Of a stretch of 64,000 nucleotides of DNA, positions 290 through 24,037 are shown in pieces (within the stretch, counting starts at the first letter, position 1; the number at the start of each line of letters is the position of its first letter). The stretch is taken from contig CP084166.1 of the NCBI GenBank assembly GCA_021513695.1, positions 1,088,001 through 1,152,000 of the forward strand. The letters run 5' to 3'. This DNA is from Candidatus Heimdallarchaeum aukensis. Lineage in GTDB: Archaea; Asgardarchaeota; Heimdallarchaeia; Heimdallarchaeales; Heimdallarchaeaceae. Made by a program: the position numbers and the translations under genes. The notes below the pieces were generated by a model, which ran no database searches, was not told the origin of the DNA, and saw only the letters and a list, made by a program, of their open reading frames with translations.

Positions 290-292
290 TCA

Positions 293-2776: not shown

Positions 2777-2825
2777 TTTCTTTTTCTTTCAAAAATTTTT
2801 TATTCCCTTTACCTTTTTTAAAATT

Positions 2826-6465: not shown

Positions 6466-6466
6466 A

Positions 6467-6961: not shown

Positions 6962-7034
6962 CGTTTACGGCTCCACTTTTTAGTGTAGCTAAAGAGGAAA
7001 AGGTTTTTTACTTAAGAAATTTATTTTTATAAGA

Positions 7035-8228: not shown

Positions 8229-8266
8229 AAAAGATCGATGTAAGAAAAAATTTATACCAAATAAAT

Positions 8267-8515
8267 CTATTCAACACAGATCATAGTCATTGAATCTTTA
8301 ACTCCCTCTACAATAACTTTGTTATTTAATACTTGATTCTTCAGTTCATCCATGCTATCAAAGGTAACTTTTACAATTAGGTCATAAATTCCATATACAG
8401 CATGAATTTCGTTTACACCTTTTAACATTGACAATTTTTCACGTACTTCTTCTAATTTTCCTGGTTGAACATTTAATAGTATATATGCTGATTGAGTCAT
8501 AATATCACATCTCAA
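8267..8515 (-). CDS. stand-alone Lrp/AsnC-type RAM (ligand-binding) domain protein
   Basis: The 82-aa protein matches the AsnC C-terminal domain pattern (NVQPGKLEEV...GVNEIHAVYGIYDLIVKV). Confidence 0.6.
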   Translation of the reverse strand: MRCDIMTQSAYILLNVQPGKLEEVREKLSMLKGVNEIHAVYGIYDLIVKVTFDSMDELKNQVLNNKVIVEGVKDSMTMICVE

Positions 8516-8812
8516 ACTTATAAATCAACAAAAAAAAATGAATATAAAAGTTTAAACATCTAGACATGACTTTTTTCTTTTTCTTTTTAACGACATAAAC
8601 TAAATAATTACTAACCATCACCCATTTTACACTGAAAAACAAGGTGTGGAGCATTTAATAGACAAAAAAGATTACCATAGTGCTGTTTAGTAGTTATTCT
8701 TATTAAAAAATAAATTGGATAACAATATTATTCAGATTATATCTTGTTCGTTGAATACAAAATATTTTTATTATTACTTCTATCTAACTCCAAAAAAAGA
8801 AAAAGAAGTTTT

Positions 8813-10117
8813 TTAGGTTGCTATACGTAATTTTGTTTTACAAGTTGGGCAAGTTCCTTTTTGAATAATCCATTGATAGAGATGATTTTTGTGGAAAATA
8901 TTATCACAAGAAGGACAACGAATAGAATTCTTAAGATTATTTATGCTTTGGAAGCAAATACTACATTTAGGTTTCATTTGAGACGTACCAACAATTCTAA
9001 AATCTTTTGGAATCGAAGAAAAGTCCACTCTAATAGCGTTCTCAGGTGCGTATTCTGCTTTTTTATATTTTATAGAAGGATAAGACTCAAAACTTTGATA
9101 CTTCTTATTCTTTCTTTTTCTAAGTACAATTGATACAATTATAACAGAAATAACTAGAAATGGTGGTCCAGCATAAAGCACTATTTTCAGAAATATTACT
9201 AAAATACTCAAAAAAGACAAAAATACATCACTTTCATACCATTTTTTAATTTTGAAACTATAATCTTTTCCAAAATCAATAGGTATAGAAAAAATAGAAC
9301 TTTTTACTTTAACAAAGAATAATCTTACAATGTTCAATTCTGTAGCATGATCATAAAAAAGCATTATTGAAGCAAAAGAAGAGGAGTTCGAGTATGTTTC
9401 ATTAAAACTAATAGAAAACCATTCAGCTTTTTGAATACTTTCAGAAAGCTTTAATGAAGCAGAAATCGACGATACTGGTCCTTGATAGGTTTCAGAAAAA
9501 ATTGCATTATTAGATTGATCACACACCATTATATCCAAATTCGAAATATTTTTTCCATAAAAATTAATGTTTACATATAGTTTTTTTAATTCAGTAAAAT
9601 GGTCTGGAATTCTTTCTAAACTAAAGTATAATCGGTTTGTCTGTGCTAAGTCTATAAAAGAGTTATAAGTCCAGATTATAGGTTCAGTGAGATTCAAGTT
9701 CCATGAAAAAACAATTTCCTGAACAAATTTATTAACAAATTGTAGTATATAAATTCCAGGTTTTAATTCTTCTGTAATTAAAAAGTGCTTTTCTTTGTCT
9801 CTAGCTGTTATTAACCAATTATTTAGATTTTGCATATCTTTTTCATGGATTAATAATATACCAAGTCCAGTGTAATCATCATCTAATATAATTTCTCCCC
9901 ATTCACCAACTATAACTGAAATTTCGAGAGTTGCAGGTTCATCTAAATAGACATAATACTCTGTTTCTGAGAATGTATCATCTAGTTTCAAAGAAAAAGA
10001 TGAAGAATTCGATTCTTTTTTAATATAATCTGTAGTTCTTTCTGAAATAGCATAAGTACAAAAAAAGTAAGAAGAAAAAAGAACTAATAGTACTAGCAAA
10101 GTAATTTTCTTTTTCAT
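8813..10117 (-). CDS. type-I membrane protein with cytoplasmic RING/PHD-like cross-brace zinc finger
   Basis: It has a signal peptide (MKKKITLLVLLVLFSSYFFCTYA), a ~270-aa ectodomain, one long TM segment, then a KR-rich stop-transfer and the motif CSIC-x12-CPSC-x4-HKNH-x10-CPTC. That is eight Zn ligands with RING-like spacing. Its start overlaps the stop of the upstream vWA gene by 4 nt. Confidence 0.6.
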   Translation of the reverse strand: MKKKITLLVLLVLFSSYFFCTYAISERTTDYIKKESNSSSFSLKLDDTFSETEYYVYLDEPATLEISVIVGEWGEIILDDDYTGLGILLIHEKDMQNLNNWLITARDKEKHFLITEELKPGIYILQFVNKFVQEIVFSWNLNLTEPIIWTYNSFIDLAQTNRLYFSLERIPDHFTELKKLYVNINFYGKNISNLDIMVCDQSNNAIFSETYQGPVSSISASLKLSESIQKAEWFSISFNETYSNSSSFASIMLFYDHATELNIVRLFFVKVKSSIFSIPIDFGKDYSFKIKKWYESDVFLSFLSILVIFLKIVLYAGPPFLVISVIIVSIVLRKRKNKKYQSFESYPSIKYKKAEYAPENAIRVDFSSIPKDFRIVGTSQMKPKCSICFQSINNLKNSIRCPSCDNIFHKNHLYQWIIQKGTCPTCKTKLRIAT

Positions 10118-12276
10118 TTTTTAGCTCCATTTTGTTTTAATATTAATGCACTTAAACTTATGAAACTTATTAGTATAACAAGAAATTGGAAGTCTGCTGT
10201 TACACCGTAATAATGTTCAAAAGGTTCATTCTTACTATCAAGGTTGAAAGAAACAAATATCTCACCTTCATGATATGAAGGATAGATTAGAACAAAGCAT
10301 TCGTCCTCTGGTAAAAGTACTTCAACAAATCCAGAAGCGATCTCTGTCCAATTCACGTCGTAAATAATAATTTTCATTTCTACATACTCTGAATCGGCTA
10401 ATATAGTTCTCTGCTCGCTGAGATTTAATCTATTATCGATGTACAGAAGAATTGATTGATTATATGTTAAAGTTATGGTCATATTCTGTTCAAATTCCAA
10501 GTTTATCTTTTCTACATTGTAAATATTAACATCGATTGCAATGTTTGTCCAAATTTTTATCTTGTAGAGAGAAAGAGATGAAAGACTCAAGTTGATGAAA
10601 TCTTGGCCTGTTTTTTCATAAACTATTTCTCCTTTCTTAACATCTAAACAAATAATATTTACTGGAGATTCTGCATCAATGAGCCCAATTGTACTATTTT
10701 CTTTAGCTTCTAGATAGAATATGGTACTTTGGTTTTCATAAAGATGGAATGTGAATCGCTCATTTGGTAAAAGATTCAAGTACTCAACATTTTCTCCTAA
10801 AGGAGCTGTATATATGCCTGTTACAATATCATTACCTAGATAATCTTCGGTGTAAATATAATAACTCAGTAGCTCATCTTCATCATCATATTTTAATGAT
10901 AAAATAAAGGTATCACCAGATTGATTGGTAGCTTGAGCAATAACCCAAGTAAGATTGTCATTATAACGGTAAAAAACTTCAACAAAAGGTACTCGGGAAA
11001 CATCTAAAACCTCAACTATGATATTAACATACTTTTGTTCAGTGTTGAAATCTTCAGTGTAAGAAGCCCAAGCTCTTATTTCAGGTGGTAAATCATCAAC
11101 TAAGACTCGAAAAACTTTTTCAATTGTTTGAGTAGATGAAGTATCACTTTCAATTGTTAAATAGGTAACAGTAAGGAATATTTTAAGAGCTTTCTCAACA
11201 GAGTAAGTCTCGATGAAATATTTAATTATTCTTGGTAGATCAGCAGTTGAAGGAAATTCTTCTGTACCAATTCTGACATAGGTTCCATGAGTAATTTCAG
11301 CACCTAAACTTAATCTTTCAATAGTCAATTCATCTGAACCTTTCGCTGCAACAGTACACAAAATAAACTTTTCTTCAGCTAATTGTTCATACAAGTTTTG
11401 TAAATCTCTTGTAGAAACCTTTATTCCATCATCTCCAGCTTCATCAGTAATTAAGACAATAAGATTAGGAACATCCTCTCTCCAATCCATTTGATACATA
11501 GCCACCCATAAAGCATCACCCCAAGGTTCAATAGAGCCAGAAGCTTTCGTTTTTTTCAATTTTTTAACGATTTGTTGAACATCAGAGGTTAAAGGTGTAA
11601 CTAGTTCTTCAAAAAGGTAAGGATTTTCTTTTTCTCCTCCGAAAAGAACTAGACCTATTCGTAAATCATTTATTGTATCTGAAAGTTCATTCACTACTGA
11701 GATTAAGTCAGAAGTTAAAGCTTCAATTTCATCGTCCATCGAACCAGATTGATCTAAAACAATAACTAAATCCAGAGATTCACTTATAGTTTCATTTGTT
11801 GTTACATTTACTTTATATTCTTTTGAAAGGTAGGTTTCATGTCCATTTAAAGTCCCTACAGTTTCAAAGGCACTGTTACTTTCTTCGCCACCATCACTCA
11901 CTAAAACGCCTAAATCATTCAAAGAGAAGTTTAATTTCACATCATAAGCTGCAGTTTCATTAATATTGGTTATATTGAAGTAAAATGAGAACTGATTTTG
12001 AGATTTTATACTTGGCATCTTATCTTCTCTGTGACTTTCTAAATTAGTATTGAAAGATACCTTAAGTTCAGGTTCATCTCTCTCTTGTGTAGTAGTAATT
12101 AAACTTTTGATTTCGTTTTCTGTATCACCAATATTTTCAATATTTCCATCAATCTTTATCCCGCCCAATATAAATCCAGCTATCAAAAGAAGGATTAATA
12201 CTTTTTTTAACTTACCAGTAATCATATATATCAAGATATCGATATACATACAACTATATAAAAGTTTCTCTTTCAC
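10114..12276 (-). CDS. membrane-anchored von Willebrand factor A (vWA) domain protein
   Basis: It has an N-terminal TM helix and a vWA domain with the MIDAS motif VLDQSGSMDD (DxSxS). The downstream T and D residues expected of the fold are present. A long beta-rich C-terminal region follows. Confidence 0.65.
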   Translation of the reverse strand: MKEKLLYSCMYIDILIYMITGKLKKVLILLLIAGFILGGIKIDGNIENIGDTENEIKSLITTTQERDEPELKVSFNTNLESHREDKMPSIKSQNQFSFYFNITNINETAAYDVKLNFSLNDLGVLVSDGGEESNSAFETVGTLNGHETYLSKEYKVNVTTNETISESLDLVIVLDQSGSMDDEIEALTSDLISVVNELSDTINDLRIGLVLFGGEKENPYLFEELVTPLTSDVQQIVKKLKKTKASGSIEPWGDALWVAMYQMDWREDVPNLIVLITDEAGDDGIKVSTRDLQNLYEQLAEEKFILCTVAAKGSDELTIERLSLGAEITHGTYVRIGTEEFPSTADLPRIIKYFIETYSVEKALKIFLTVTYLTIESDTSSTQTIEKVFRVLVDDLPPEIRAWASYTEDFNTEQKYVNIIVEVLDVSRVPFVEVFYRYNDNLTWVIAQATNQSGDTFILSLKYDDEDELLSYYIYTEDYLGNDIVTGIYTAPLGENVEYLNLLPNERFTFHLYENQSTIFYLEAKENSTIGLIDAESPVNIICLDVKKGEIVYEKTGQDFINLSLSSLSLYKIKIWTNIAIDVNIYNVEKINLEFEQNMTITLTYNQSILLYIDNRLNLSEQRTILADSEYVEMKIIIYDVNWTEIASGFVEVLLPEDECFVLIYPSYHEGEIFVSFNLDSKNEPFEHYYGVTADFQFLVILISFISLSALILKQNGAKK

Positions 12277-12305
12277 AGAGTATAAGAGAAATATATCAAA
12301 ATATC

Positions 12306-12320
12306 GAAATATTTATAACA
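12306..12320 (+). promoter_or_regulatory. putative archaeal TATA box/BRE for a leaderless transcript of the wHTH-ParA operon
   Basis: The sequence atatTTATAAca is centred about 26 nt upstream of the ATG at 12341. No SD is present. Confidence 0.3.
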
Positions 12321-12340
12321 TGTATAAATGATTCTTAAAT

Positions 12341-12694
12341 ATGGAAAAACTACTGAACAGAGTAGTTGAGCTTTTAGAAGAGATCAACACAAAATTGAGT
12401 AGAATAGAAAAAAAATTAGAAGGAGAAGGAGAGATTAATATACCTTCTTCAATTGATTTATTAACAAAAATGACTAAAGCGCAAAGATTGACTTATTTTG
12501 CTGTACAAAAAATCGGAGAAGCGACTTGTTCAGAAGTAGCAGAAGAGACAGGAAGAAGTATGAATTTAGAGTCAAGGTATTTAAGGAGATTATATGAAAT
12601 GGGAGTTTTAGGAAGAAAACGTGTTCCTGTTTCAGATAAAGAAGAAGAATGGAAGGGGACAGAAGTGAAGTATTTCATAAAGGAGGAGAAGTAA
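12341..12694 (+). CDS. small coiled-coil + winged-helix DNA-binding protein
   Basis: N-terminal coiled coil (LEEINTKLSRIEKKLEGEGE), then a MarR/TrmB-like wHTH (LTYFAVQKIGEATCSEVAEETGRSMNLESRYLRRLYEMGVL). Confidence 0.5.
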   Translation: MEKLLNRVVELLEEINTKLSRIEKKLEGEGEINIPSSIDLLTKMTKAQRLTYFAVQKIGEATCSEVAEETGRSMNLESRYLRRLYEMGVLGRKRVPVSDKEEEWKGTEVKYFIKEEK

Positions 12695-13462
12695 ATGAAA
12701 ACAATAAGTGTTCATAGTTATAGAGGAGGAACAGGAAAAACAACTTTTTTGTTAAATATTGCAGGAGAGTTAGTAACAAGAGGAAAAAAAGTTTTAGCTA
12801 TAGACTTTGATTTAAGAGCACCAGCATTTCAATCTTATTTTAAAATTGATAAACTGAACTATTTGAGTGACTACCTGTTAAATAAAAAGCATTTAGAAGA
12901 AGTTATTGTTCAAGCAGAAGAAAGAGGAAATGGAAGAATAGATTTGATTTTTTCATCTATGGAATTTTTAAAGCAACATTCAAAACAAAGAGATAAGCTT
13001 GTGAGAGATGATACAGTTTATCTTTCAAAGTTGTATCAATTGCAAAAAGAAGTAGAAGAGAATTATGATTATTTATTAATAGATACAACCCCAGGTTTCT
13101 TTTATAGATCAATTGATGCAATGATGATATCAGATATTCTCTTGATTGTTTCTACACCAACCATTTCTAATGTTCAAGGATTAGAAGAGTTATGGAGAAA
13201 TGTCTATTCTATGCTTAAAGAAGATGTAAATATGTACTTATTAATTAATATGATAGAAAAAGAGGGAGAAAAAGTAGATAAAGAATTAGTAGAAAAAAGT
13301 ATAGAAGAGCTAAAAAAAATGGGGAAGAAATATTTTGCAAATAAGTTGATAGAAATACCAGATTATGGAGCAATGGGAGAAAGAATACATTCGTTTGAAC
13401 AAGAACCAAATAAAGAATTTCTAAATAAGATATCAGAATTAATAGATTTACTAAATGGATAA
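12695..13462 (+). CDS. ParA/MinD/SIMIBI-family P-loop ATPase
   Basis: Deviant Walker A YRGGTGKTT, a LAIDFD block and DTTPG (Walker B-like). Its start codon is adjacent to the stop of the wHTH gene. Confidence 0.65.
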   Translation: MKTISVHSYRGGTGKTTFLLNIAGELVTRGKKVLAIDFDLRAPAFQSYFKIDKLNYLSDYLLNKKHLEEVIVQAEERGNGRIDLIFSSMEFLKQHSKQRDKLVRDDTVYLSKLYQLQKEVEENYDYLLIDTTPGFFYRSIDAMMISDILLIVSTPTISNVQGLEELWRNVYSMLKEDVNMYLLINMIEKEGEKVDKELVEKSIEELKKMGKKYFANKLIEIPDYGAMGERIHSFEQEPNKEFLNKISELIDLLNG

Positions 13463-13475
13463 TAGAGGGAAATAG

Positions 13476-14840
13476 GTGAAAGGTGAGAAGGAAAAAGTAA
13501 AGGATTTAAAAAAGGTCCAAAGTTATTTGAAAGATTCTAAAAAAAATCTTTTACTTTTAAAAAGAGGAAAGAAGCCAAGAAGAAAGCTTAAGTTTCTCAT
13601 TAAAGATCACCTTTTTTTCACAATTTTATTCTTAGTCCTAATAGTAGGAGCAACAACTATTCCCCTCTTAATTAAAGAGAAGACAGATGATAAAATAGAG
13701 CAACCAGAAGAGAAAAAAGTAAAGGAAACGCTTACTCTTCTATCGACAAATTTCACAGATAGTGAAGGTATTCCTATAAACGAGTTAGGTAATTACACTG
13801 AATCATCTAAATTAATTATCCTCTCCACTCTTTCATTTTCAATGCTATATCTGGCAGGCTTTAACATAACAATTGAGCAGTTATCACTTCAGAAAGACAA
13901 TATTCTTTCAATTCTTAATGATGGTTCCTTTGTTCAGTTTAACAACAATAGTCAAAAACTTTCTATTTTCTATCAATTTTTGGGCTTATATGCTCTAATC
14001 CAGCTTCTATATGCAACAAAAAACACTGAGATCGGCTTTAGTATTGATATCTTATTCAACAGTTTGAACAAACAATTGAGGGAATATTACAATAAAGAAA
14101 ATAGGCTATTTATTGATAAAAACGCTACAGAAGCTTTTTTGGTTGACCAATCTTTAGCTTTGTGGGTTATTGCTATCACAATACTCTACTTTAATGTAGA
14201 ATCAATATTTGAATTTTATTTACCTGATATAATTCAAGATGTGTTATACAGTTTAAATCAAGATTATAGAAACGCAACAACTAATAAAATTGTGAGCTCA
14301 ATAAGCAATAAGACAAAAGAGCCAATACAATTAGAAGTGACTTCCTTTGATTTATTAATCTTAGTAGCAGCATTATCCAGAGTAAACTTGCTATATGATT
14401 ACTTCTTTGATAATGATTTAAGTAGTATAAATTTGTTTGAAAATATTATTAACCAGTATACAGATGAGAAACTGATAGTTTACGAAAAAAGATTTCTTAA
14501 TGGACATCTACTAATAAGAAATCAGTGTTTTTTTACTCTAACATCATACCTTTTACACTTAACAGTTACAGGAAATCAAAGTTTGAATGTTGTAACAACA
14601 AACTATTGGAAAGATAATAAGGGTTTCATTGAGGAAATTAATGCAAATAAGTTTTCAGCAGAAGCAAACTACTATGGATTGATAACTTTAGCTAGCCCAG
14701 AATGGAGTAAAGGAGAATATTTCTATATTCAAGACAATTATAAGGGAAATGCCGTAACCTCTAGAGCAGATGTGTTAACGATATTCGTATCATTAGTGAT
14801 AGTATTCATCATAAATAAGAGAAGAAAAAGAATAAAATAA
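13476..14840 (+). CDS. membrane protein (N-terminal TM, large extracytoplasmic domain, C-terminal TM + KRRKRIK tail)
   Basis: Hydropathy pattern only. It lies 13 nt downstream of the ParA-like gene. Confidence 0.45.
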   Translation: MKGEKEKVKDLKKVQSYLKDSKKNLLLLKRGKKPRRKLKFLIKDHLFFTILFLVLIVGATTIPLLIKEKTDDKIEQPEEKKVKETLTLLSTNFTDSEGIPINELGNYTESSKLIILSTLSFSMLYLAGFNITIEQLSLQKDNILSILNDGSFVQFNNNSQKLSIFYQFLGLYALIQLLYATKNTEIGFSIDILFNSLNKQLREYYNKENRLFIDKNATEAFLVDQSLALWVIAITILYFNVESIFEFYLPDIIQDVLYSLNQDYRNATTNKIVSSISNKTKEPIQLEVTSFDLLILVAALSRVNLLYDYFFDNDLSSINLFENIINQYTDEKLIVYEKRFLNGHLLIRNQCFFTLTSYLLHLTVTGNQSLNVVTTNYWKDNKGFIEEINANKFSAEANYYGLITLASPEWSKGEYFYIQDNYKGNAVTSRADVLTIFVSLVIVFIINKRRKRIK

Positions 14841-14844
14841 CAAT

Positions 14845-15495
14845 TTAATTACCAATTAGCCCTTGAGTAATAGAAAAACTAGTTTCATCTTTAATTTGAT
14901 TGTAAAATTGTTTTAGTATTTTTAATCGTCGTCTCGCAAGCCTTTTGGTGAAACAGAAATGCATTCTTGAAGGAAGAAGAAAAAGTTTATCATCAAAATG
15001 AAGTAACATCTCATCTATATCTCTATTGTGCTCTAAACTGAAAGAAATTACACGAAAAAGGCCGATAGAACCTAAAGCATCCAACATATCTGCATCTTGT
15101 AAGATTTTGCCTTCAATACTCGTAGGCTCTCTACTTTTACTGAAACGGTGTTCAAGAATATTAACACGAACTTCCTCTGCTAAATCAGGAAAACCTCGCT
15201 CAGAAAGAAAGTCAAAAGCTATTTTTGAACCCATTTCAGCATGACACTCTCCTGTTTTAGACTCTTCTGGGCGAGCAACATCATGAAAAAGGGCACTTAA
15301 TAAACAAACATCAAGAAAAACATGGAGCTTGACTCCAATAGAATAACACAAGTCAATAACACGAATAGTATGCTCTAAAGAGTGAGTAGAAGAATCATTG
15401 TCTAATTTAGAAGAAACAAAAGAATATCCTTCTTTAAAGATTTTAAGAAATAAAGAATAGTCTTTAATATACTTGGCTTTGTAATGAGAAATCAT
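14845..15495 (-). CDS. HD-domain metal-dependent phosphohydrolase
   Basis: H...HD motif (HSLEHTIRV ... ALFHDVARPE) with downstream H and D residues. It lies 33 nt downstream of the 545-aa unknown gene on the same strand. Confidence 0.65.
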   Translation of the reverse strand: MISHYKAKYIKDYSLFLKIFKEGYSFVSSKLDNDSSTHSLEHTIRVIDLCYSIGVKLHVFLDVCLLSALFHDVARPEESKTGECHAEMGSKIAFDFLSERGFPDLAEEVRVNILEHRFSKSREPTSIEGKILQDADMLDALGSIGLFRVISFSLEHNRDIDEMLLHFDDKLFLLPSRMHFCFTKRLARRRLKILKQFYNQIKDETSFSITQGLIGN

Positions 15496-15527
15496 TAAAC
15501 AATTAAAAAACCTCAGCTATTAATAAT

Positions 15528-17165
15528 TTATGAATAGGCATTTTCATATTCTTCATTATTTGCAGTTAAGCATGAAATTCGGCTATAAATTTCTTCAAAA
15601 TATGATCGTGAATAAATAGTTTCAGAAATGTTATAGTGGTCTTGAATCACACTTAAAGCTTTGTAATAAATTTCCTGAATCAGAAAAAATATATTAACAT
15701 CAAACATGTTTTTTCCAAATGATTTTGGAATCTTATGTAAACCATGAAGTGGATTAATGCAAAACTCTGTATTGAGCTCTGTTAATCCAGACCAATCACT
15801 GTGACTAATACCAGCTGTTGGACCGTAAAACAAATCATAGTATTTTTTGTCTCCAATGTCTTCAGCCATTTTTCTAATACTAGTTTTATCAGCCCAACTA
15901 CCTGTGAGCTTTATTTTTATTAGATCTGATAAACCTTTTTCTGTTAAAATTCTATCAATTTGCTTAATTTTTTTTTCATATCCTTTTGGTTTATATTCCT
16001 CTAATTTCATTTTTTCATTCTTTTTTTCACCATAACCATATTCTTTAAACTTTGCATATAATTCTTCATCATCTTTTAGTAATAACCACTTTAAAACAAA
16101 ATATGTTTCTAAATGGTTTCTTAGTAGAATATAGCCAATAGATGGTTCTTGGAAAACTAAATAATTGGAAAAAAATTGAAAATTTGACGCTAGTCTAGAA
16201 ATAAGTCCAGCAACGATATCCTCTTTGGATGGATTATATATGTTAATTTTGATTTTTTTCCACATTTGATTGATTTCAAGATCAATACTATCAATCAAAT
16301 AAAGTCGCATTTCGGTAAGTTCATACCAAACTTGATTATATTCTTGAATATTTATCTTTCTCATGGAAGGAATACAAGGAGATAATAGTCCATTTTTCAT
16401 CCAGAATTTTTTTGACCAATTTTGATCAATAAAATTATCTAAAAATATAGCTGATATGCTTCGCGCCGATGATTCAACCAATTTTTTGTCTCCCTGCGGA
16501 TATACCGATAGTGCTTTAATAATCCTCGAACAAGTTTCTTGTTCTAACCCGATTATTTTTCTCTCTTCCATCATTCTCATTAGAACAAGTACTCGCATTA
16601 ATGATGCAAGATCACCATGACTCTCATATAACTCGATAATAAGATTAGAAATAACATCTAAAATCTCATCTTTTTGACTCTCGGAAAATGGTTTTACGTT
16701 AAATAAATAATTAAGAGAATCTTCTTGATAAATATTCATTATATCCTCAAAACGCGTTCTAATAAAAATAGACGCAAAAATGTGTTGAATTTCATTTAAG
16801 AAATCTTTTTGATGCTCTAAAGGAATATTAGAAAATTCGCTTACCAAGCCAAATGAGACAGCATCAGATTGAAGATATTTTTGAATTAATTGAGTAGTCT
16901 TTCTGTAAAGATAAAGAGCTTTATGATGATCATAAGTAGTGAATAAACTAGCTACCCAAAGAAACTCAGGAAGTTGTTTTTTTGACCAATCAACTTCTAT
17001 TATCTTATCCTCTCCTAACAGATATAAGAGGGGGGAAATCAAATGTTTCTTATATCGTTTGTGTTTTAAATACTTATCTTTTTTGTGTTTCATAAAAGAT
17101 ATTATTGAAAAATATAATATAAAATATTCGAAATTTAATTTTTTAATATTAATAAAATAAAGCAT
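15528..17165 (-). CDS. uncharacterised 545-aa protein (no recognisable motif)
   Basis: The ORF is long, with complex composition and no low-complexity bias. The true start may be the internal Met (MKHKKDKY) roughly 25 codons in. Confidence 0.5.
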   Translation of the reverse strand: MLYFINIKKLNFEYFILYFSIISFMKHKKDKYLKHKRYKKHLISPLLYLLGEDKIIEVDWSKKQLPEFLWVASLFTTYDHHKALYLYRKTTQLIQKYLQSDAVSFGLVSEFSNIPLEHQKDFLNEIQHIFASIFIRTRFEDIMNIYQEDSLNYLFNVKPFSESQKDEILDVISNLIIELYESHGDLASLMRVLVLMRMMEERKIIGLEQETCSRIIKALSVYPQGDKKLVESSARSISAIFLDNFIDQNWSKKFWMKNGLLSPCIPSMRKINIQEYNQVWYELTEMRLYLIDSIDLEINQMWKKIKINIYNPSKEDIVAGLISRLASNFQFFSNYLVFQEPSIGYILLRNHLETYFVLKWLLLKDDEELYAKFKEYGYGEKKNEKMKLEEYKPKGYEKKIKQIDRILTEKGLSDLIKIKLTGSWADKTSIRKMAEDIGDKKYYDLFYGPTAGISHSDWSGLTELNTEFCINPLHGLHKIPKSFGKNMFDVNIFFLIQEIYYKALSVIQDHYNISETIYSRSYFEEIYSRISCLTANNEEYENAYS

Positions 17166-17183
17166 AATTTTTATAATAGTTAA

Positions 17184-17576
17184 GTGAATAGTTTAGTTAT
17201 GAACAATAAAAAAATAAACAAGAATCAAGGAGAAAAACAAGAGTCTCAAGCTTTTACCATGTCAATTTTTTCTAGACGCTGGGGACATGAAGATAACTAT
17301 ATTGTATTTATGTGGGAAGAAGGTTGGAAAATATCATCACATAGTGGTATTGTTGAATGTAATAAAAGATTTGAACCAGGATTATATGACATACTTAAAC
17401 ATGACTCGATTAATTACCCTAAAAATCTTCCTCTATATTTCGAATGGTTTTGGGAAGAAGCTCAAGAACAAGGATTAAACCATGAAGAAATTCAAGAAGG
17501 ATTGACAGAACTTACTAACTGGATAAACAGATGTGAAATTTCAACTCCTTCAAAAGGAATATTTGAAAGATTTTAA
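17184..17576 (+). CDS. hypothetical 130-aa protein
   Basis: ORF only (W-rich, acidic). It is divergent from the 545-aa gene. Confidence 0.35.
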   Translation: MNSLVMNNKKINKNQGEKQESQAFTMSIFSRRWGHEDNYIVFMWEEGWKISSHSGIVECNKRFEPGLYDILKHDSINYPKNLPLYFEWFWEEAQEQGLNHEEIQEGLTELTNWINRCEISTPSKGIFERF

Positions 17577-17670
17577 AATTTGCATGTAAAATCAAAGGCT
17601 ATATTAGACAACATAAAATGATGTCTCCATATGATTGCTAAGATTGACACAATATATAAAAAGAATTTTT

Positions 17671-19815
17671 CTAATTTAAATTACCTAAGAATTCTAAAAA
17701 AGCTAAAAATTCAGTATTTTTATTTTTAATTAATTTTATAACTAAATTGAAACATTCTTCAAATGTCATATCTTTCCAGTCGTCTTTTTTGAATTTTGTT
17801 ACTGTCTTTTTAATCATACCTTCTAAATCATTCTCCCAAGAGAAAATATTGTAATTCTTTGCAAAACTAATAATCTCCTTTTTCCTTTCTTGTATATTAG
17901 TTGTTTTTGAAGAAAAAATTTCATCTAAATTTATATTACACCGTTGTTTCAAAATTTTACTAATATAACTATTAGTCAAAGAATTTTTAGGTTTAAGAAA
18001 TGCATCAAAATCACATATTAAAACATACTTAATATCAAAGAAATCTGCTATCGATAAAGCCTTGGAAATATCACCGGTACCATCAATTGAAATAACATCC
18101 CAATTTAAGAAATTCGTGCTTGAAAGATTAAGTTCTTTTTGAATATGATGATTCTCCAGAACAGAGAATAAAGTTGTAACAATTTTATTGTCATATGTTC
18201 CTTCAACAAAAATAACATTGGAAGCAAAAAATATGCTTTTTATGTTAGGATCCAAGAGAAAACGATTATAACGCTCTTCATCTTTAAGTCCTTCAAGAAA
18301 AGATCTTAAATATTTAATCTGACTTCCAGTTTTTGTTTTTAAACATCGAAGAATTGAATATAGAAGTTCATTAGATATCAAATCAGGACTATGAGTGACA
18401 ACTAAATAAGAATGCTCATTATCTTGTTTAATATAATTACCAAGTTTCTTTCTAAAAGAAGGATGAAGAGTTTTACCAGGTTCATCTAATATTATAGTAT
18501 CAGCTTCAAATCCATAAATGGAACATAAAACCATTAAAATCTCATAAGCTCCTCCAGGCGAGCAATTTAATCTAAAAGCTTTATTATTTTGCAAGTCGTG
18601 AAATTGAATATCAGGACGTTTACCTGTTAATACTGCACCTTCATCTAATTTAATAGAATAGGAGTTTTGTTGAGAATAAGAAGAATCAGGTTCAATTAAG
18701 AGAACAGGAGCTTTTTTTTCATGAACCTTTTCGTCAACAAGGACAATGTTAAAATTATATTTTTCTTCAGTCATAGTTTTGAAATGTTCTCTGATACGTT
18801 CAAAAATTTCTTGCTCTTTGGGATTTGAACTCATTTTCTTTTGAAATAGTGCATATTTGATTCTTTCAAGAGTTAGTACATTTGTAATGTTTTCTCTCCA
18901 AGGATAACTAAAACCATTTTCTAATAATCCTCTATCTTCTCTTAAAATAACAACTTTTTGTCTAATGATTTTTGAAATAAAATTGCCAAAATATTTGTAG
19001 TAATTATAAATTTCAATTTTATAACCCATTTTTCGAAGCAAAATTCTAAAATCTGCAGATAAATTATGAAGTTCAGGTAAAAAATCAATATTACTGAAAT
19101 CTAATTCAGATAAATATAAAATTAAGGCTTTTTCAAATATATATTGAAAAAAAATATTTTTTAGAAAATCTTCATTATTTTTAACAAGTTCTTTAATATC
19201 TTCTCCAGGATATAAATCATTAAAGGATTTGACGAAAGAAGTAATATTTCGAAAATCTAGATATTGATTTTTACTTAATGTTAAAATTTCATCTAATTTT
19301 TTCTCTTTGTCAACTAAAATAATTATATTTGTTGAAGGATTACTTAAGTAAATGTTTAAAGATTCATTAAATGAAAGTATTAAAAAATATTTTAATCTCT
19401 CAGGATTGTTGCTTTCAGAACAAAAGCCTATTGTTAAATCAGAAAAAGAATCCTTGAGAAAATTCTCCCAATTGTTAAAGAAAGAATAGATTAATGCTCT
19501 ACCGAATTCTTGATCTGAACTTAAATGCATTGAACAAAAAGATAAGACAAGAAATTTACGTAAAAAAATACGTTCATCTTCACTTAGTTCAAAGGTTAAA
19601 TAAATTTTAGATTGAGTTTTGGTGTCCCAAAAAGGAAAATAAGACCAATCTAAGTTAGAGGTTGCAGAGTTGGATAATATAAAATCAATTATTCTAACAA
19701 GATTAGATTTTCCAGAACCATTCTCGCCAACAATAATAGACTTTTGATTAAGATTTATTTCTTGTTCTTCAGAATAAGAAAGAAAGTTCTTGATATAAAT
19801 CTTCTTAAGAATCAT
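17671..19815 (-). CDS. OLD-family / PARIS-like nuclease: N-terminal ABC-type (AAA_15/21) ATPase fused to C-terminal Toprim domain
   Basis: Walker A IVGENGSGKSNL near the N terminus, Walker B IILDEPG, an H-loop VVTHSPDLI, then a Toprim region with VFVEGTYD (Glu) and LICDFDA (DxD). Length is 714 aa. Confidence 0.7.
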   Translation of the reverse strand: MILKKIYIKNFLSYSEEQEINLNQKSIIVGENGSGKSNLVRIIDFILSNSATSNLDWSYFPFWDTKTQSKIYLTFELSEDERIFLRKFLVLSFCSMHLSSDQEFGRALIYSFFNNWENFLKDSFSDLTIGFCSESNNPERLKYFLILSFNESLNIYLSNPSTNIIILVDKEKKLDEILTLSKNQYLDFRNITSFVKSFNDLYPGEDIKELVKNNEDFLKNIFFQYIFEKALILYLSELDFSNIDFLPELHNLSADFRILLRKMGYKIEIYNYYKYFGNFISKIIRQKVVILREDRGLLENGFSYPWRENITNVLTLERIKYALFQKKMSSNPKEQEIFERIREHFKTMTEEKYNFNIVLVDEKVHEKKAPVLLIEPDSSYSQQNSYSIKLDEGAVLTGKRPDIQFHDLQNNKAFRLNCSPGGAYEILMVLCSIYGFEADTIILDEPGKTLHPSFRKKLGNYIKQDNEHSYLVVTHSPDLISNELLYSILRCLKTKTGSQIKYLRSFLEGLKDEERYNRFLLDPNIKSIFFASNVIFVEGTYDNKIVTTLFSVLENHHIQKELNLSSTNFLNWDVISIDGTGDISKALSIADFFDIKYVLICDFDAFLKPKNSLTNSYISKILKQRCNINLDEIFSSKTTNIQERKKEIISFAKNYNIFSWENDLEGMIKKTVTKFKKDDWKDMTFEECFNLVIKLIKNKNTEFLAFLEFLGNLN

Positions 19816-19961
19816 TGATTAAAAATGAATTTTAACTATAAGTATTTTTCTTTTATAATTAAAGAAAATAGTAAGAAGAAAAAGATTAAACAAAATTTAG
19901 AATAGATAGAAAATTTTAAATGAGAAAATAAAAAGAGAACTGTAGATAGAAACAGCAAATT

Positions 19962-20038
19962 GACCGGGTAGTCTAGCTTGGTACGATACATGCTTGGGGT
20001 GCATGTGATCCTGGGTTCGAATCCCAGCTCGGTCACCA
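19962..20038 (+). tRNA. tRNA-Pro (anticodon GGG), CCA encoded
   Basis: Cloverleaf: acceptor GACCGGG/CTCGGTC, anticodon stem CATGC/GCATG with loop TTGGGGT, T arm CTGGG-TTCGAAT-CCCAG, discriminator A, then CCA. Confidence 0.8.
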
Positions 20039-20385
20039 TGTATTATTCTCCAATTACAGCAAACATAGATGAAATATGCGAAATTTCTTTTTTTCATTGA
20101 ATTATTTGTACTATTTTTTTTACTATAAGATAAATTTACATGTAATTACTTATCTATATTAATGTAGTAAATATTGTTTGTTTAAAATCACATTATTTTA
20201 AGAACTATTATAAAAAATGTTGTAAATGATAATTTATTTTCTTGTTATTGAAAAATAGGAACAAATAAGGATTTCTTCATTAAGTACAAAGTCTTAAATA
20301 TTGAGCAAAATAAACACAAATAATTACACATAGAAAAAACTAAACAATAATGTCAAATTAAGCGTTGATACTCTATAATATGTAA

Positions 20386-20785
20386 TTGTCCCCAAATTTC
20401 CTTGCTTTGTTTGGCATTTGTGTTGGAATGAGTAGTATGAAACTTATCAAGGTATCAATTCTGACCACTTTATTTTCTCTATATCTATTTTTTTCAAGTT
20501 CACAACATTTAGTTTTTGCAGCTAATCTGGAACTTAATTCACAATTGCCGTTATTATGGACTTTTACAACTGACAGTCAATTCTATTCAAGCCCTGCTAT
20601 TGGAGATTTGGATGGAGATAACATATATACGTAAAACAAATCCTTGGAAATGGGATACAGATTGGGATACATTACCAGATGGATATGATATATTTCCCCT
20701 ATTTCCAGATGGATGGATCTATTATGGGATACTTGGTTCAGTTATTGTATTAGTTGTGGTAAAATTATACAAAAAGAAAAGATAA
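20386..20785 (+). pseudogene. possible frameshifted remnant of a surface protein (signal peptide ... FG-GAP-like SSPAIGDLDGDN ... C-terminal TM + KKKR)
   Basis: Two overlapping ORFs in different frames (82 aa and 89 aa). Together they resemble the N and C termini of a much larger anchored protein. The location is right beside a tRNA. Confidence 0.25.
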
Positions 20786-20901
20786 ACTAATAAAACAGAA
20801 TATTGGTCTATATCCTTGTTTGAAATACTAATCTGTTATCTATCATTTTTTTATGCTTGATAAAAAAGTGAATAGAATATCTGAATTCTTTTTTCTTTTT
20901 T

Positions 20902-21444
20902 TTACATTTTTCTTATTATTTCTATTGCTTCTTCTACTTCTTTTACTTTTATTATTTTTTCTCTTTCTTTTTCATCTATTTTTTCTTCTTTTGCTATTTT
21001 TTCGCTCCACCCACCTGATTTTTCTATTAATATTATTTTTTTACCATATTGCCACGCCATTGCTATTTCTGATAATGTCCCTGCTCCTCCTCCTATCCCT
21101 ACCACCACATCTGCGGACAGTACTATTATTTGATTTCTCGCGTAACTCATTCCTGTTGGTATTATGATATCCACGTATTCATTTGCTTGTTCTTTTTTTG
21201 TTGTCGGCAATATTCCTATAGTCATTCCTTCTCTGTATTTTTTTGCCTTTTTTGCTCCTTTACACACTTCTTTCATTATTCCGTCTTTTCCTCCACATAT
21301 TATTCTGCAATTATTTTCTACTAGTTTTTCTCCTAGTTCCTCTGCTATTTTTTTCAGTTCTTCTTTTATTTCTCCCCCTTTGCCTATTACTGCTACTTGC
21401 TTTATTTTATTCACCTTCGTCCCTCCAAATGTTATTATTTTCAA
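20902..21444 (-). CDS. LOG/TIGR00725-family Rossmann-fold protein (SLOG superfamily)
   Basis: IGGGAGTLSEI (PGGxGTxxE-like) motif and an upstream GGKDGIM block. Length is 180 aa. Confidence 0.6.
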   Translation of the reverse strand: MKIITFGGTKVNKIKQVAVIGKGGEIKEELKKIAEELGEKLVENNCRIICGGKDGIMKEVCKGAKKAKKYREGMTIGILPTTKKEQANEYVDIIIPTGMSYARNQIIVLSADVVVGIGGGAGTLSEIAMAWQYGKKIILIEKSGGWSEKIAKEEKIDEKEREKIIKVKEVEEAIEIIRKM

Positions 21445-21500
21445 AAAGTTGTCCTAGTTTTTATGTTTAAGCTTTCTTCTTTTCTTTATTTAATTATTCT

Positions 21501-22403
21501 TTAATTATATCTTTTTGACATTGCTTTCATTAGTTTTGCTTGGAACTTTGTTCTTTTGTTAAAGGGTATATTTAGCTGATATCTTTTTGTAAACAGTTTT
21601 TGCAATTCTCTATGTTCGTTATGGTACATTCCTATTACAAACTTTGCTTGTTCTTCAAGTAATGTTTCATAATTTTCATTTAATATTAAGTCTATATAGT
21701 AATCTAGGAAATATTTTTCTTCTTTTGCTATTTTTTCTACTTTTGACTGCTTATTTTTTACTATTACTTTTTCTTCTCTTGCTTTTTCATGTTTTCCAAA
21801 GAAGTACAATACGTTGTGAACTAGTTGGTTTTGGCATGTTTTATCTGAATACGAAATTAGGGAAAAGTCATAGCTTGCTTCGTATGGTATTGCTTTATCT
21901 ACTAGTGCTGCTAGTTCAATTAGTCCTTTTTCACTTAAATTTGGTTGTAATATTACTTTATCCTGTATCATTGCTGATACAACAATTTCTCTTAGAGTTT
22001 TATCGTCTATTTTTTCATAGATTTTGTTTTTTTCTTTCCTAAAATGCTTTTCTGTGAGAATTTGTGGTTCTTGTTCTATTGAATCAAATAAATCTGAATA
22101 AATTAGAGGAGAAGCATAATAAAATAATGAATTAAAATTATACTCTTCTGACGGAACTATTATATTTTGTGCAAGTGCTTTTGGTCTTCCAAACGGATCT
22201 ACCCCATCACTTCTTACTAGTTTTACTACTATATCTCCTGTGTTTTGCATTGTAAATTTAGAAACGTATTTTATATGCTTTTTTTGCTTGGATGACAATT
22301 CTGGTAGAAAAATAATTGAATTTTCCTTTAATTCTTCTGGAATATTGGCTAACCAGATTTTATATCCATACTTGTCATCTCTCTTAGTTACAACTTGATA
22401 CAT
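21501..22403 (-). CDS. hypothetical 300-aa protein
   Basis: ORF only. Confidence 0.4.
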   Translation of the reverse strand: MYQVVTKRDDKYGYKIWLANIPEELKENSIIFLPELSSKQKKHIKYVSKFTMQNTGDIVVKLVRSDGVDPFGRPKALAQNIIVPSEEYNFNSLFYYASPLIYSDLFDSIEQEPQILTEKHFRKEKNKIYEKIDDKTLREIVVSAMIQDKVILQPNLSEKGLIELAALVDKAIPYEASYDFSLISYSDKTCQNQLVHNVLYFFGKHEKAREEKVIVKNKQSKVEKIAKEEKYFLDYYIDLILNENYETLLEEQAKFVIGMYHNEHRELQKLFTKRYQLNIPFNKRTKFQAKLMKAMSKRYN

Positions 22404-22528
22404 CTACAGTTCATCTTTTTGATTTTCAGTTATTTTGCCTTTATTCAATAAATATCTTTCTCTTGTAAAAATTTTTCCTCTTTCTTTTTGAAAATATTCT
22501 TATAGTTTTTTTAGTTAATTAGTATATC

Positions 22529-23560
22529 TTGAAAAAGAACTATGATTTATCTGAATTATTTTCTGTTATCGACAATCAACTAGTTAACTCTCCTCTCAAA
22601 GCAATTGAACTTTTAGAAGATAATTCAGAGCACTTCGAGGACAATATCCTTTTTTTCTTGCGTTTAGGAGAACTTTATTTCAATCAAAAAAAATATGACA
22701 GTGCTTTACTTTCTTTTTCCCGAGCACTAGAGCTTGAACCAGAGAATGTGGAAGTATTATCACATATCAGTGATGTTTACATCAAGAAAAGAGATTACAC
22801 CCAAGCTGAAGTTGCTCTCCTAAAGGCTATAGAATATGAACCTAAGAACACTCTATTACTAAGTAAACTTGCTAATTTGTATTTTGATATTGGTAAATAT
22901 TACGAGTCTCAACAATTGCTCATTCAAGCAATAGAAGAAGAACCTAAAGCTGAATACTATTCTTTACTTGCTACTATCTATAAGAAAATGGATAATGATA
23001 TTGCTTGTTGGAACACTTTAGTAAAAGCAGAACAATTGTTTCCAGATGATATAAACATACTTAACCAGATTGGAGCTTATTATTTTGATTTGGACAATTT
23101 CTCAAAAGCTTTATCTTATTTTCAACGAGCTCTTTCTTTAGACCCTGAAAACCAGCATTCTCTTTTTCAGTTAGCAAAAACTTTTGAGAAAATGAACGAT
23201 CCTTACAATGCTATTGATATGTATTCAAAAATTGTAGAGATTAATCCTGATCATGCTTTAGCTTATTTTTATTTAGGAAAACTTTATTCTTCTCTTGGCG
23301 ACTTCGCTCAAGCACTTATTTGCTATTCTAAATGTTTAGAACTTGATCCTTCCTTCTCTGATGCTGCTTTAGATTTAGCTTCTATACACTGGGTATCAAA
23401 AGAATATAACAAAGCTTTATCTATTTTGAAAGAAGCATTAAAATTTTCAAAAGACAAGGAGATTTATAAGATGATGAGCAATATTTACGAAGAAACAGGC
23501 AATGAAAATAAAGCTAAATATTATAGAGAACTATCTAGAACAAATAATAACGAGGATTAA
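22529..23560 (+). CDS. TPR-repeat protein
   Basis: Multiple 34-aa repeats with the A/L/Y...NP pattern (e.g. ALSYFQRALSLDPEN, ALICYSKCLELDPS). Confidence 0.65.
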   Translation: MKKNYDLSELFSVIDNQLVNSPLKAIELLEDNSEHFEDNILFFLRLGELYFNQKKYDSALLSFSRALELEPENVEVLSHISDVYIKKRDYTQAEVALLKAIEYEPKNTLLLSKLANLYFDIGKYYESQQLLIQAIEEEPKAEYYSLLATIYKKMDNDIACWNTLVKAEQLFPDDINILNQIGAYYFDLDNFSKALSYFQRALSLDPENQHSLFQLAKTFEKMNDPYNAIDMYSKIVEINPDHALAYFYLGKLYSSLGDFAQALICYSKCLELDPSFSDAALDLASIHWVSKEYNKALSILKEALKFSKDKEIYKMMSNIYEETGNENKAKYYRELSRTNNNED

Positions 23561-23562
23561 GA

Positions 23563-23970: not shown

Positions 23971-24037
23971 AATGAAGTTTTAATGATACCTTCAAATATC
24001 TTTTTGGGGTAAGATTTAATAAACAAATAATAAAAAT

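What the first reader, a model, noticed from the sequence alone, without database searches (positions are those of the whole stretch)
14845..17165. Uncharacterised 545-aa protein co-transcribed with an HD phosphohydrolase, next to the OLD-like gene: candidate novel two-gene defence or signalling module
The 545-aa ORF has no motif I can place (no P-loop, no helicase motifs, no nuclease signature). It is followed 33 nt later on the same strand by a compact HD-domain hydrolase. It is divergent from a 130-aa orphan and adjacent to the OLD-family gene and tRNA-Pro. HD nucleases or phosphodiesterases paired with a large unknown sensor-like protein are a recurring theme in newly discovered defence systems. 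Together with the OLD-like gene this forms a ~5-kb island of non-housekeeping genes (14845-19815).
Basis: inference. Interest (0 to 1): 0.65.

Follow-up and report, generated by a model that had tools for sequence, protein, structure and literature searches.

The report
Lone Aditi-like gene beside core HD gene
The large "unknown" protein is a distant relative of DitA, one half of the known but unexplained Aditi anti-phage system. It sits with an OLD nuclease in a 4.4-kb strain-specific insert, and the HD hydrolase next to it is an ordinary conserved gene, not its partner.

Summary
The two-gene-module reading does not hold.

The window comes from the Asgard archaeon Ca. Heimdallarchaeum aukensis. 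The HD gene (14845-15495) is a core gene. H. endolithica has an 87%-identical ortholog at the same syntenic place, next to the same tRNA-Pro, with no 545-aa gene. More distant Heimdallarchaeaceae keep HD behind a Metallophos gene in a housekeeping context.

The 545-aa ORF probably starts at M25 (521 aa, 15528-17093). It is not an orphan:
- Pfam DUF5677: 59 bits.
- PADLOC DitA model: E=2.3e-31, nearly full length. I read DitA as Aditi, Millman 2022.
- 851 family clusters in an exhaustive search; the closest relative is only 30% identical.

None of the loci examined has an HD neighbour or any conserved partner. No neighbour tested matched DitB. Some neighbours are defence or mobile-element genes: Avs2 (5 loci), type IIG restriction-modification, integrases and tRNAs.

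The DitA-like gene, a 130-aa integron-cassette-like gene and the OLD nuclease form one 4,363-bp block (15525-19887) that H. endolithica lacks.

A confident AlphaFold model (pLDDT 90) is all-alpha and has no solved relative. Invariant C240, C445, H450, H453, H431 and R325 suggest a metal site.

Verdict: a new, divergent, solitary member of a known uncharacterised family in a small defence islet. Interest is modest.

The parts
15528..17093 (-). DitA-like (DUF5677) protein, 521 aa from the probable start M25. The maximal ORF runs to 17165 (545 aa).
   Evidence: ORF. NCBI's 521-aa annotation. Pfam DUF5677 6.5e-16. PADLOC DitA 2.3e-31 over model positions 4-480 of 486. 851 related clusters. AF2 model with pLDDT 89.8, all-alpha.
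17184..17576 (+). 130-aa accessory gene of the 'integron cassette protein' family, divergent from the DitA-like gene.
   Evidence: Pfam PF21648 1.8e-11. PDB 3FY6 2.9e-7. No PADLOC hit. Absent from all 70 family loci. Unrelated to the 138-aa gene of H. endolithica.
17671..19815 (-). OLD-family ATPase-Toprim nuclease (714 aa) with no adjacent helicase gene.
   Evidence: Pfam AAA_15 4e-13 and OLD-like_TOPRIM 1.9e-9. PADLOC Old 2.6e-28 and GajA 1.2e-24.
15525..19887 (.). 4,363-bp block present in H. aukensis and absent from H. endolithica. It holds the three genes above. In H. endolithica about 32 nt of the 143-nt tRNA-Pro/HD spacer occupy its place.
   Evidence: blastn synteny blocks 14624-15524 and 19888-20060 flank the gap. 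Border alignments. No integrase, no convincing flanking repeats, no attC-like hairpins.
14845..15495 (-). HD phosphohydrolase (216 aa). It is a conserved core gene that flanks the island and is not part of it.
   Evidence: 87%-identical syntenic ortholog in H. endolithica and 43-54%-identical orthologs in Heimdallarchaeaceae. Pfam HD. Weak YedJ-like PRK10119 match.
15496..15527 (-). 32-nt spacer between the DitA-like stop codon and the HD start codon. On the coding strand it holds an ATTAATAG TATA-like box, conserved with H. endolithica about 25-35 nt upstream of the ATG, and a T6 run.
   Evidence: Sequence. Alignment with H. endolithica. The promoter and terminator roles are inference.
19962..20038 (+). 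tRNA-Pro(GGG), the conserved flank on the other side of the island.
   Evidence: ARAGORN, Rfam. The same tRNA lies next to HD in H. endolithica.

Best explanation
The two genes are neighbours by accident of insertion. They are not a module.

**Shown**
- The HD gene is a lineage-conserved housekeeping-type phosphohydrolase.
- It retains a TATA-like box that is conserved with the sister species.
- Immediately upstream of that box, H. aukensis carries a 4.36-kb species-specific block between HD and tRNA-Pro. The block encodes a solitary DitA-like/DUF5677 protein, a small integron-cassette-like protein and an OLD-family nuclease.
- The DitA-like protein belongs to a large, patchily distributed accessory family found in archaea and bacteria. 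The family usually occurs as a single gene in variable, often tRNA-adjacent contexts rich in defence and mobile-element genes.

**Inferred**
- The block is a small anti-virus/anti-mobile-element islet.
- The DitA-like protein acts on its own, or at most loosely alongside OLD, as an immune protein.
- It is an all-alpha, two-domain protein.
- Its invariant residues C240, C445, H450, H453 and H431, together with R325, K358, R407, W226 and W231, most likely form a Zn-type metal centre and a binding or catalytic pocket. That pocket would recognise or process a viral or nucleic-acid ligand.
For: **Identity of the genome and gene**
-.

**HD is a core gene**
- An 87%-identical ortholog exists, plus about 24 Heimdallarchaeaceae orthologs.
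- The gene order FtsX, tRNA_SAD, Cdc6, zf-RING, HD, tRNA-Pro, SLOG, TPR, radical SAM is shared with H. endolithica.
- The blastn breakpoints lie at 15524/15525 and 19887/19888.
- The Metallophos-HD pairing occurs in housekeeping surroundings in the two more distant HD orthologues whose loci I fetched.

**Family membership of the DitA-like protein**
-. All 60 aligned members carry DUF5677 and nothing else.

**No conserved partner**
-.

**Defence and mobile-element neighbours**
- Avs2 lies directly upstream on the same strand in 5 Pseudomonas loci.
- Type IIG restriction-modification or DrmMI-like genes occur in L015 and L020; a type II methyltransferase-like gene in L065.
- BrnT/A and HicB occur in L001.
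- Integrase fragments and ORFans surround the closest homologues.
- A tRNA gene lies within 1.5 kb in 10 of 60 loci.

**Aditi is a validated system of two proteins with no known domains**
- bioRxiv 10.1101/2022.05.11.491447.

**Conserved residues**
- Over 135 representatives: W231, R325 and H431 at 100%; W226, F230, C240, C445, H450 and H453 at 99%.

**Structure**
- The model is confident (pLDDT 89.8, pTM 0.84).
Against: **Against a defence role or an independent action**
- No DitB-like partner was found. The canonical Aditi system has two genes, and whether DitA works alone is untested.
- A DUF5677 ORF tested in E. faecalis was not among the genes that gave phage resistance (10.1101/2025.10.07.681051).
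- The window protein has Ala at the 97%-conserved Ser427, so it could be impaired.

**Limits of the inference**
- The defence role rests on homology to one validated system and on guilt by association.
- The metal site is inferred from conservation only. I could not inspect the model coordinates.
- The 32-nt spacer does not exclude read-through transcription into HD.
- The island has no integrase or clear att repeats. A deletion in H. endolithica rather than an insertion in H. aukensis cannot be excluded from two genomes.
Confidence: 0.6

Rival explanations
1. The 545-aa protein is a sensor and the HD protein is its co-transcribed effector, forming a novel two-gene defence or signalling module.
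For: - The two genes share a strand and have only a 32-nt spacer.
- HD domains are effectors in several known defence systems (general knowledge).
- The insertion placed the DitA-like gene directly upstream of HD, so read-through is physically possible.
Against: - HD has a syntenic 87%-identical ortholog without the 545-aa gene.
- In the two more distant HD orthologues whose loci I fetched, HD follows a Metallophos gene in a housekeeping context.
- 0 of 70 family loci have such an HD neighbour.
- HD has no PADLOC hit.
- The insertion border leaves a conserved TATA-like box in front of HD, and a T6 run follows the upstream stop codon.
Confidence: 0.04
2. The whole 4.36-kb block is one functional system. 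The OLD nuclease would be the effector, and the DitA-like protein and/or the 130-aa protein its sensor or regulator, giving a new OLD class.
For: - The three genes are present or absent as one block relative to H. endolithica.
- Known OLD classes 2-4 pair OLD with partner genes (PMC10568477, title seen; general knowledge).
- One Pseudomonas locus (L019) has an OLD-like ORF 2.7 kb downstream of its DitA-like gene, and L067 has a weak one.
Against: - The gene orientation is -, +, -, so this is not an operon.
- An OLD-like neighbour occurs in only 2 of 70 loci, and the 130-aa family in none.
- L019 also contains Avs2, so co-location there looks like ordinary defence-island clustering.
Confidence: 0.12
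3. The DitA-like/DUF5677 protein is not an immune protein. It would be a cargo or maintenance gene of integrated mobile elements, for example a regulator or an addiction or exclusion factor. Its neighbourhood pattern would simply reflect life in variable regions.
For: - A DUF5677 ORF gave no phage resistance in the one screen found.
- Many neighbours are plain housekeeping genes such as ribonucleotide reductase (RNR), IlvD and GARS.
- The closest homologues sit among ORFans and integrase fragments.
- No nuclease, NTPase or other effector motif is present.
Against: - There is full-length homology to DitA of the experimentally validated Aditi system.
- Avs2 recurs in tight same-strand adjacency in five loci, and restriction-modification genes recur as neighbours.
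- There are no hits in 50,697 phage genomes and only one weak plasmid hit. That argues against typical phage or plasmid cargo.
Confidence: 0.22

Closest known systems
Aditi anti-phage system (DitA + DitB; Millman et al. 2022, bioRxiv 10.1101/2022.05.11.491447)
   Same: - There is full-length homology to the PADLOC DitA model (E=2.3e-31, model positions 4-480 of 486).
- A Thermoplasmatota relative scores 5.2e-39 against the same model.
- Like Aditi, the protein has no recognisable enzymatic domain and no solved structural relative.
   Different: - No DitB-type partner is present. The three flanking proteins and 20 same-strand neighbours of relatives gave no DitB hit.
- The host is an Asgard archaeon. 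A 2024 survey reported complete Aditi only in Euryarchaeota among archaea (10.1101/2024.10.26.620412).
- The score is modest (107 bits), so this is a distant relative.
- The link from the model name 'DitA' to Aditi rests on Millman's naming scheme. Nsn = Menshen is confirmed in PMC12065111. Dit = Aditi comes from my own knowledge.
Pfam DUF5677 (PF18928) family
   Same: The match is above the gathering threshold (59.3 against 27.1 bits), covering residues 292-440 of the 521-aa protein. NCBI already names the protein 'DUF5677 domain-containing protein'.
   Different: The Pfam domain covers only the C-terminal third. The family found here is conserved over about 480 residues, including an N-terminal helical domain with its own invariant residues P42, W46, R211, W226, W231 and C240.
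OLD-family nucleases / Gabija GajA (the neighbouring gene)
   Same: The neighbour has the ABC-ATPase plus Toprim architecture. It shares the same indel block.
   Different: This is a different protein from the finding's ORF. No GajB-like helicase lies next to it. The association of OLD with DitA-like genes is not conserved: 2 of 70 loci.
YedJ-like stand-alone HD phosphohydrolases (NCBIfam PRK10119)
   Same: The HD gene has a single HD domain, is about 216 aa long, and gives a weak match to PRK10119 (6.8e-16) over most of its length.
   Different: The score (58 bits) is far below the equivalog cutoff (286 bits). It is therefore only a general HD-superfamily relative, and its substrate is unknown.

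Membership tests
Aditi system (DitA+DitB) | A DitA homologue | tested here: met
   PADLOC PDLC03826 DitA, E=2.3e-31, 107 bits, protein residues 30-519 against model positions 4-480 of 486.
Aditi system (DitA+DitB) | An adjacent DitB homologue (two-gene operon) | tested here: not met
   HD, the 130-aa protein and OLD gave no DitB hit at E<=0.1. The island has no room for another gene. Caveat: I never saw any protein hit a DitB model, so there is no positive control.
Aditi system (DitA+DitB) | Protection against viruses when expressed | not testable with these tools
   This needs experiments. The only related datum found is negative, for one DUF5677 ORF in E. faecalis.
Pfam DUF5677 | Score above the Pfam gathering threshold | tested here: met
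   59.3 bits against 27.1. All 60 aligned relatives also match.
   0 of 70 family loci have a comparable HD neighbour. HD orthologues occur without the DitA-like gene in H. endolithica and other Heimdallarchaeaceae.
   The HD gene lies inside a synteny block of 86% nucleotide identity (14624-15524). Only the upstream gene lies in the indel.
Defence island / variable hotspot | Presence/absence polymorphism between close relatives, flanked by core genes, and containing a recognised defence gene | tested here: met
   15525-19887 is absent from H. endolithica. It is flanked by core HD and tRNA-Pro and contains an OLD-family nuclease.
Integron cassette array | attC-like hairpin recombination sites between cassettes and an IntI integrase | tested here: not met
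   The island spacers fold no better than shuffled sequence (z -0.14 and +0.10 for the 130-aa/OLD spacer, -0.38 for the divergent promoter region; z -1.8 and -2.5 for the OLD/tRNA spacer, but only short A/T stems, nothing attC-like). No integrase lies in the island.
OLD family nuclease (neighbouring gene) | N-terminal ABC-type ATPase plus C-terminal Toprim domain | tested here: met
   AAA_15, SMC_N and AAA_21 at the N-terminus; OLD-like_TOPRIM at residues 529-604.

The most novel reading that the evidence does not exclude
Solo DitA-like/DUF5677 proteins would be a self-sufficient, widespread single-gene immune family, with at least 851 clusters at 50% identity across bacteria and archaea. They would be built around a previously undescribed all-alpha fold with a Cys2His2(+His) metal centre. 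DitB would be an optional accessory. The Heimdallarchaeum copy would then be the first Asgard example, possibly cooperating with the co-inserted OLD nuclease.
Probability: 0.25. Interest if true: 0.5.

Novelty: new member of a known kind. Interest (0 to 1): 0.3.

Why it matters
- **It removes a false lead.** The HD pairing is accidental.
- **It places an Asgard 'hypothetical' protein in a family.** The protein belongs to the family of DitA, a component of Aditi, one of the few validated anti-phage systems that still has no domain assignment or mechanism.
- **It offers two points for anyone working on Aditi.**
  - In the 70 loci sampled, relatives of DitA are almost always solitary. This raises the question of whether DitA is the core functional unit.
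  - The family has a sharply conserved Cys/His/Arg/Trp constellation that gives direct mutagenesis targets.
- **It documents a hotspot.** The tRNA-Pro/HD interval is a variable hotspot in Heimdallarchaeum, which is relevant to how the closest archaeal relatives of eukaryotes acquire immune genes.

None of this is very surprising to a specialist.

Tried and rejected
- **Single-sequence AlphaFold model:** useless (pLDDT 34). It was replaced by the alignment-based model.
- **Word-index protein search:** it found only the protein itself. With a 60-sequence profile it found only one more. The exhaustive HMMER search was needed.
- **The search for related loci:** A 5-sequence sub-alignment worked, but it biases the loci toward the CxNPLHRFH subfamily.
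- **afdb50 fold library:** unavailable.
- **Fold and sequence searches against known structures:** these gave only generic helix bundles or nothing.
  - Foldseek against PDB: E>0.8.
  - Foldseek against BFVD: E>0.2.
  - Profile search against PDB sequences: best E 0.034.
- **Literature searches for 'DitA':** they returned nothing relevant. The Nsn = Menshen hit then pointed to Millman's naming scheme and to Aditi.
- **att-type direct repeats at the island borders:** only short AT-rich matches of the kind expected by chance.
- **Integron attC hairpins:** none.
- **Homology between the 130-aa gene and the 138-aa gene at the H. endolithica locus:** none.
- **DitB search among 20 same-strand neighbours of relatives:** negative.
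- **Phage and plasmid collections:** no phage hit and one weak plasmid hit.
Full report

The ORFs are real and at the stated coordinates:
- a 545-aa ORF at 15528-17165 (-);
- a 216-aa ORF at 14845-15495 (-), with a 32-nt spacer between them;
- a divergent 130-aa ORF at 17184-17576 (+);
- a 714-aa ORF at 17671-19815 (-).

tRNA-Pro(GGG) lies at 19962-20038 (+). The 216-aa protein carries a Pfam HD domain (2.3e-14). The 714-aa protein has the ABC-ATPase plus OLD-like Toprim architecture and matches PADLOC Old (2.6e-28) and GajA (1.2e-24).

The window comes from the closed genome of Ca. Heimdallarchaeum aukensis, an Asgard archaeon. There the large ORF is annotated as a 521-aa 'DUF5677 domain-containing protein' starting at M25. 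Homologues align from that point onward. I therefore take 15528-17093 as the gene. That leaves about 90 nt of AT-rich divergent promoter space before the 130-aa gene.

**2. The large protein is not unplaceable.**

- It matches Pfam DUF5677 (6.5e-16, 59.3 bits against a cutoff of 27.1) over its C-terminal third.
- It matches the PADLOC model 'DitA' (PDLC03826) at E=2.3e-31 over model positions 4-480 of 486. That is homology along the whole length.
- PADLOC gene names follow Millman et al. 2022. I confirmed that Nsn = Menshen (PMC12065111). Dit = Aditi comes from my own knowledge of that scheme.
[quoted passage not shown] HHpred' (bioRxiv 10.1101/2022.05.11.491447).
- An exhaustive HMMER search of 1.84 billion cluster representatives found 851 related clusters at E<=1e-3 and 472 at E<=1e-10. 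Most are 480-540 aa long and align end to end. The best is only 30% identical.
- The word-index search found no closer relative anywhere. The Heimdallarchaeum protein is therefore a lone, divergent member of a large family.
- All 60 aligned members carry DUF5677 and no other Pfam domain.

**3. The HD gene is a core gene, not a partner.**

- The HD protein has an 87%-identical ortholog in the sister species H. endolithica. It also has about two dozen orthologs at 43-54% identity in Heimdallarchaeaceae.
- In H. endolithica the HD gene sits in the same gene order: FtsX, tRNA_SAD, glycosyl transferase, Cdc6, zf-RING, HD, tRNA-Pro, SLOG, TPR, radical SAM. There is no DitA-like gene there.
- blastn of the window against that locus gives collinear blocks at 160-8567, 8779-10004, 14624-15524 (HD, 86% identity), 19888-20060 (tRNA-Pro, 88%) and 20623-26996.
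- The interval 15525-19887 (4,363 bp) holds exactly the DitA-like gene, the 130-aa gene and the OLD gene. In H. endolithica about 32 nt of a 143-nt tRNA-Pro/HD spacer take its place.
- In the two more distant HD orthologues whose loci I fetched, HD lies 2-9 nt behind a Metallophos phosphoesterase gene, near SAM synthetase, FKBP and tRNA/rRNA methyltransferases. That is a housekeeping setting.
- The left border of the indel falls just upstream of an ATTAATAG element. The element is conserved in both species, roughly 25-35 nt before the HD ATG, where an archaeal TATA box for a leaderless mRNA would sit. A T6 run follows the DitA-like stop codon.
- I infer that HD keeps its own promoter. Read-through cannot be excluded from sequence alone.

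**4. Neighbourhoods of the family.**

I retrieved 70 loci encoding relatives. They come from Thermoplasmatota, Methanoregula, a haloarchaeon, Streptomyces, Pseudomonas, Bradyrhizobium and other Alphaproteobacteria, Chloroflexota, Saccharibacteria, Zixibacteria and others. This is a patchy, horizontal-transfer-like distribution.

What I did not find:
- phmmer with the window's HD protein found no neighbouring HD. There was one weak hit 5 kb away in L055.
- The 130-aa protein found nothing.
- The OLD protein found two loci, L019 and a weak hit in L067.
- Clustering of the three genes on each side of the target gene, by BLASTP and by phmmer, found no partner family present in more than five loci.
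- Of 96 immediate neighbours, no Pfam family occurs more than twice.
- Twenty same-strand, closely spaced neighbours gave no DitB hit. I never saw a DitB model hit anything, so this negative result lacks a positive control.

What does recur is defence and mobile-element genes:
- Avs2 lies directly upstream on the same strand in five Pseudomonas loci.
- Type IIG restriction-modification or DrmMI-like enzymes occur in L015 and L020; a type II methyltransferase-like gene in L065.
- HNH, SAVED, BrnA, resolvases, an integrase and a phage capsid gene also appear.
- BrnT/BrnA and HicB occur in L001.
- Integrase fragments and ORFans surround the two closest homologues examined.
- A tRNA gene lies within 1.5 kb of the DitA-like gene in 10 of 60 loci, and within 600 nt in 6. 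By my rough estimate from typical tRNA density, this is several-fold more than expected. It echoes the tRNA-Pro-adjacent position in the window.
- The family is absent from 50,697 phage genomes and nearly absent from plasmids.

**5. Structure and conserved residues.**

- With a 60-sequence alignment, AlphaFold2 gives a confident model (pLDDT 89.8, pTM 0.84). It is almost entirely alpha-helical, with a small N-terminal hairpin and two short strands near the C-terminal motif.
- Foldseek against the PDB and BFVD gives nothing significant.
- Sequence and profile searches of PDB sequences give nothing.
- Conservation over 135 representatives that are at most 50% identical to each other:
  - 100%: W231, R325, H431.
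  - 99%: W226, F230, C240, C445, H450, H453.
  - 95-97%: P42, W46, R211, G355, K358, R407, S427.
- The motif is C445-x-N-P-L-H450-x-x-H453.
- One Cys from the N-terminal domain, plus Cys-His-His and a further His from the C-terminal domain, is the pattern expected of a Zn-type metal centre at a domain interface. This is inference. I could not examine coordinates.
- The window protein keeps all of these residues except Ser427, which is Ala.

**6. Most likely explanation.**

A small accessory block (DitA-like, a 130-aa integron-cassette-like protein and an OLD nuclease) lies between a core HD gene and tRNA-Pro. In H. endolithica the same tRNA-Pro carries a different insertion on its other side: an IS with a DDE transposase plus small ORFs. 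The tRNA-Pro neighbourhood is therefore a variable hotspot.

- The block has no integrase, no convincing flanking repeats and no attC-like hairpins. The mechanism of gain or loss is unknown, and so is its direction.
- I propose that the DitA-like protein is a stand-alone anti-virus/anti-mobile-element protein that acts through the conserved metal/Arg/Trp pocket.
- My confidence is about 0.85 for the evolutionary and structural picture, about 0.45 for a defence role, and about 0.15 for the specific metal-pocket mechanism.
- Evidence against a defence role: DitB is missing, there is no effector motif, and the one DUF5677 ORF tested in E. faecalis was not among the protective genes (10.1101/2025.10.07.681051).

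**7. Comparison with what is known, and novelty.**

- The protein is a member of Pfam DUF5677 (test met).
- It is a homologue of Aditi DitA (test met).
- The locus is not an Aditi system (DitB test not met).
- It is not an HD-effector module (co-occurrence test not met).
- A 2024 survey found complete Aditi only in Euryarchaeota among archaea. An Asgard DitA-like gene is therefore a small extension of the known range.
- I rate it a new, divergent member of a known but uncharacterised kind.
- The more interesting by-product is that most sampled relatives of DitA are solitary and share a sharply conserved Cys/His/Arg constellation. This gives a concrete handle on the unexplained Aditi mechanism.
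- Interest: 0.3.

Noticed in passing
window 10005-14623: A second H. aukensis-specific insertion relative to H. endolithica. It holds four genes: a 720-aa VWA-domain protein (10114-12276) whose gene overlaps the upstream zf-RING gene (8813-10117) by 4 nt; a small wHTH-like protein (12341-12694); a ParA/MinD-like ATPase (12695-13462); and a 454-aa ORFan (13476-14840). It may be a partition-type mobile module or a VWA-RING signalling pair.
   Followed up: partly
L072 7577-9711 (H. endolithica CP084167.1): On the 3' side of the same tRNA-Pro, H. endolithica carries about 2 kb that H. aukensis lacks. It holds a DDE_Tnp_1 transposase plus 176-, 138- and 46-aa ORFs. The tRNA-Pro neighbourhood therefore varies on both sides between the sister species.
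   Followed up: partly
window 17184-17576: The 130-aa 'orphan' belongs to the 'integron cassette protein' family (PF21648; PDB 3FY6, E=2.9e-7). It occurs here in an Asgard archaeon without any attC-like hairpin or integron integrase nearby.
   Followed up: partly
L016, L019, L022, L025, L028 (Pseudomonas spp.), about 3100-9550: In five Pseudomonas genomes an Avs2 STAND NTPase lies directly upstream of the DitA-like gene on the same strand. The gaps range from 116 nt down to an 89-nt overlap in my crude ORF calls. This could be a recurrent Avs2/DitA-like pairing. All five are from one genus, so it may be a single inherited island.
   Followed up: partly
L075-L078 (Heimdallarchaeaceae): The HD orthologue lies immediately (2-9 nt) downstream of a Metallophos phosphoesterase gene next to SAM synthetase. 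This suggests an ancestral Metallophos-HD operon that has been broken up in the two Heimdallarchaeum species.
   Followed up: no
window 20902-21444: A SLOG-domain protein of the LDcluster4 family (6.7e-43) lies next to the island. It is conserved in both species and is therefore part of the core flank, not the island.
   Followed up: no
window 15813-15815 (residue 427 of the 521-aa protein): The window protein has Ala where 97% of 135 family representatives have Ser, in the P-x-S-x-x-x-H-G-x-W motif. It also differs at four other well-conserved positions: P126S, D284N, I332F and L359N. This may indicate relaxed or altered function.
   Followed up: no
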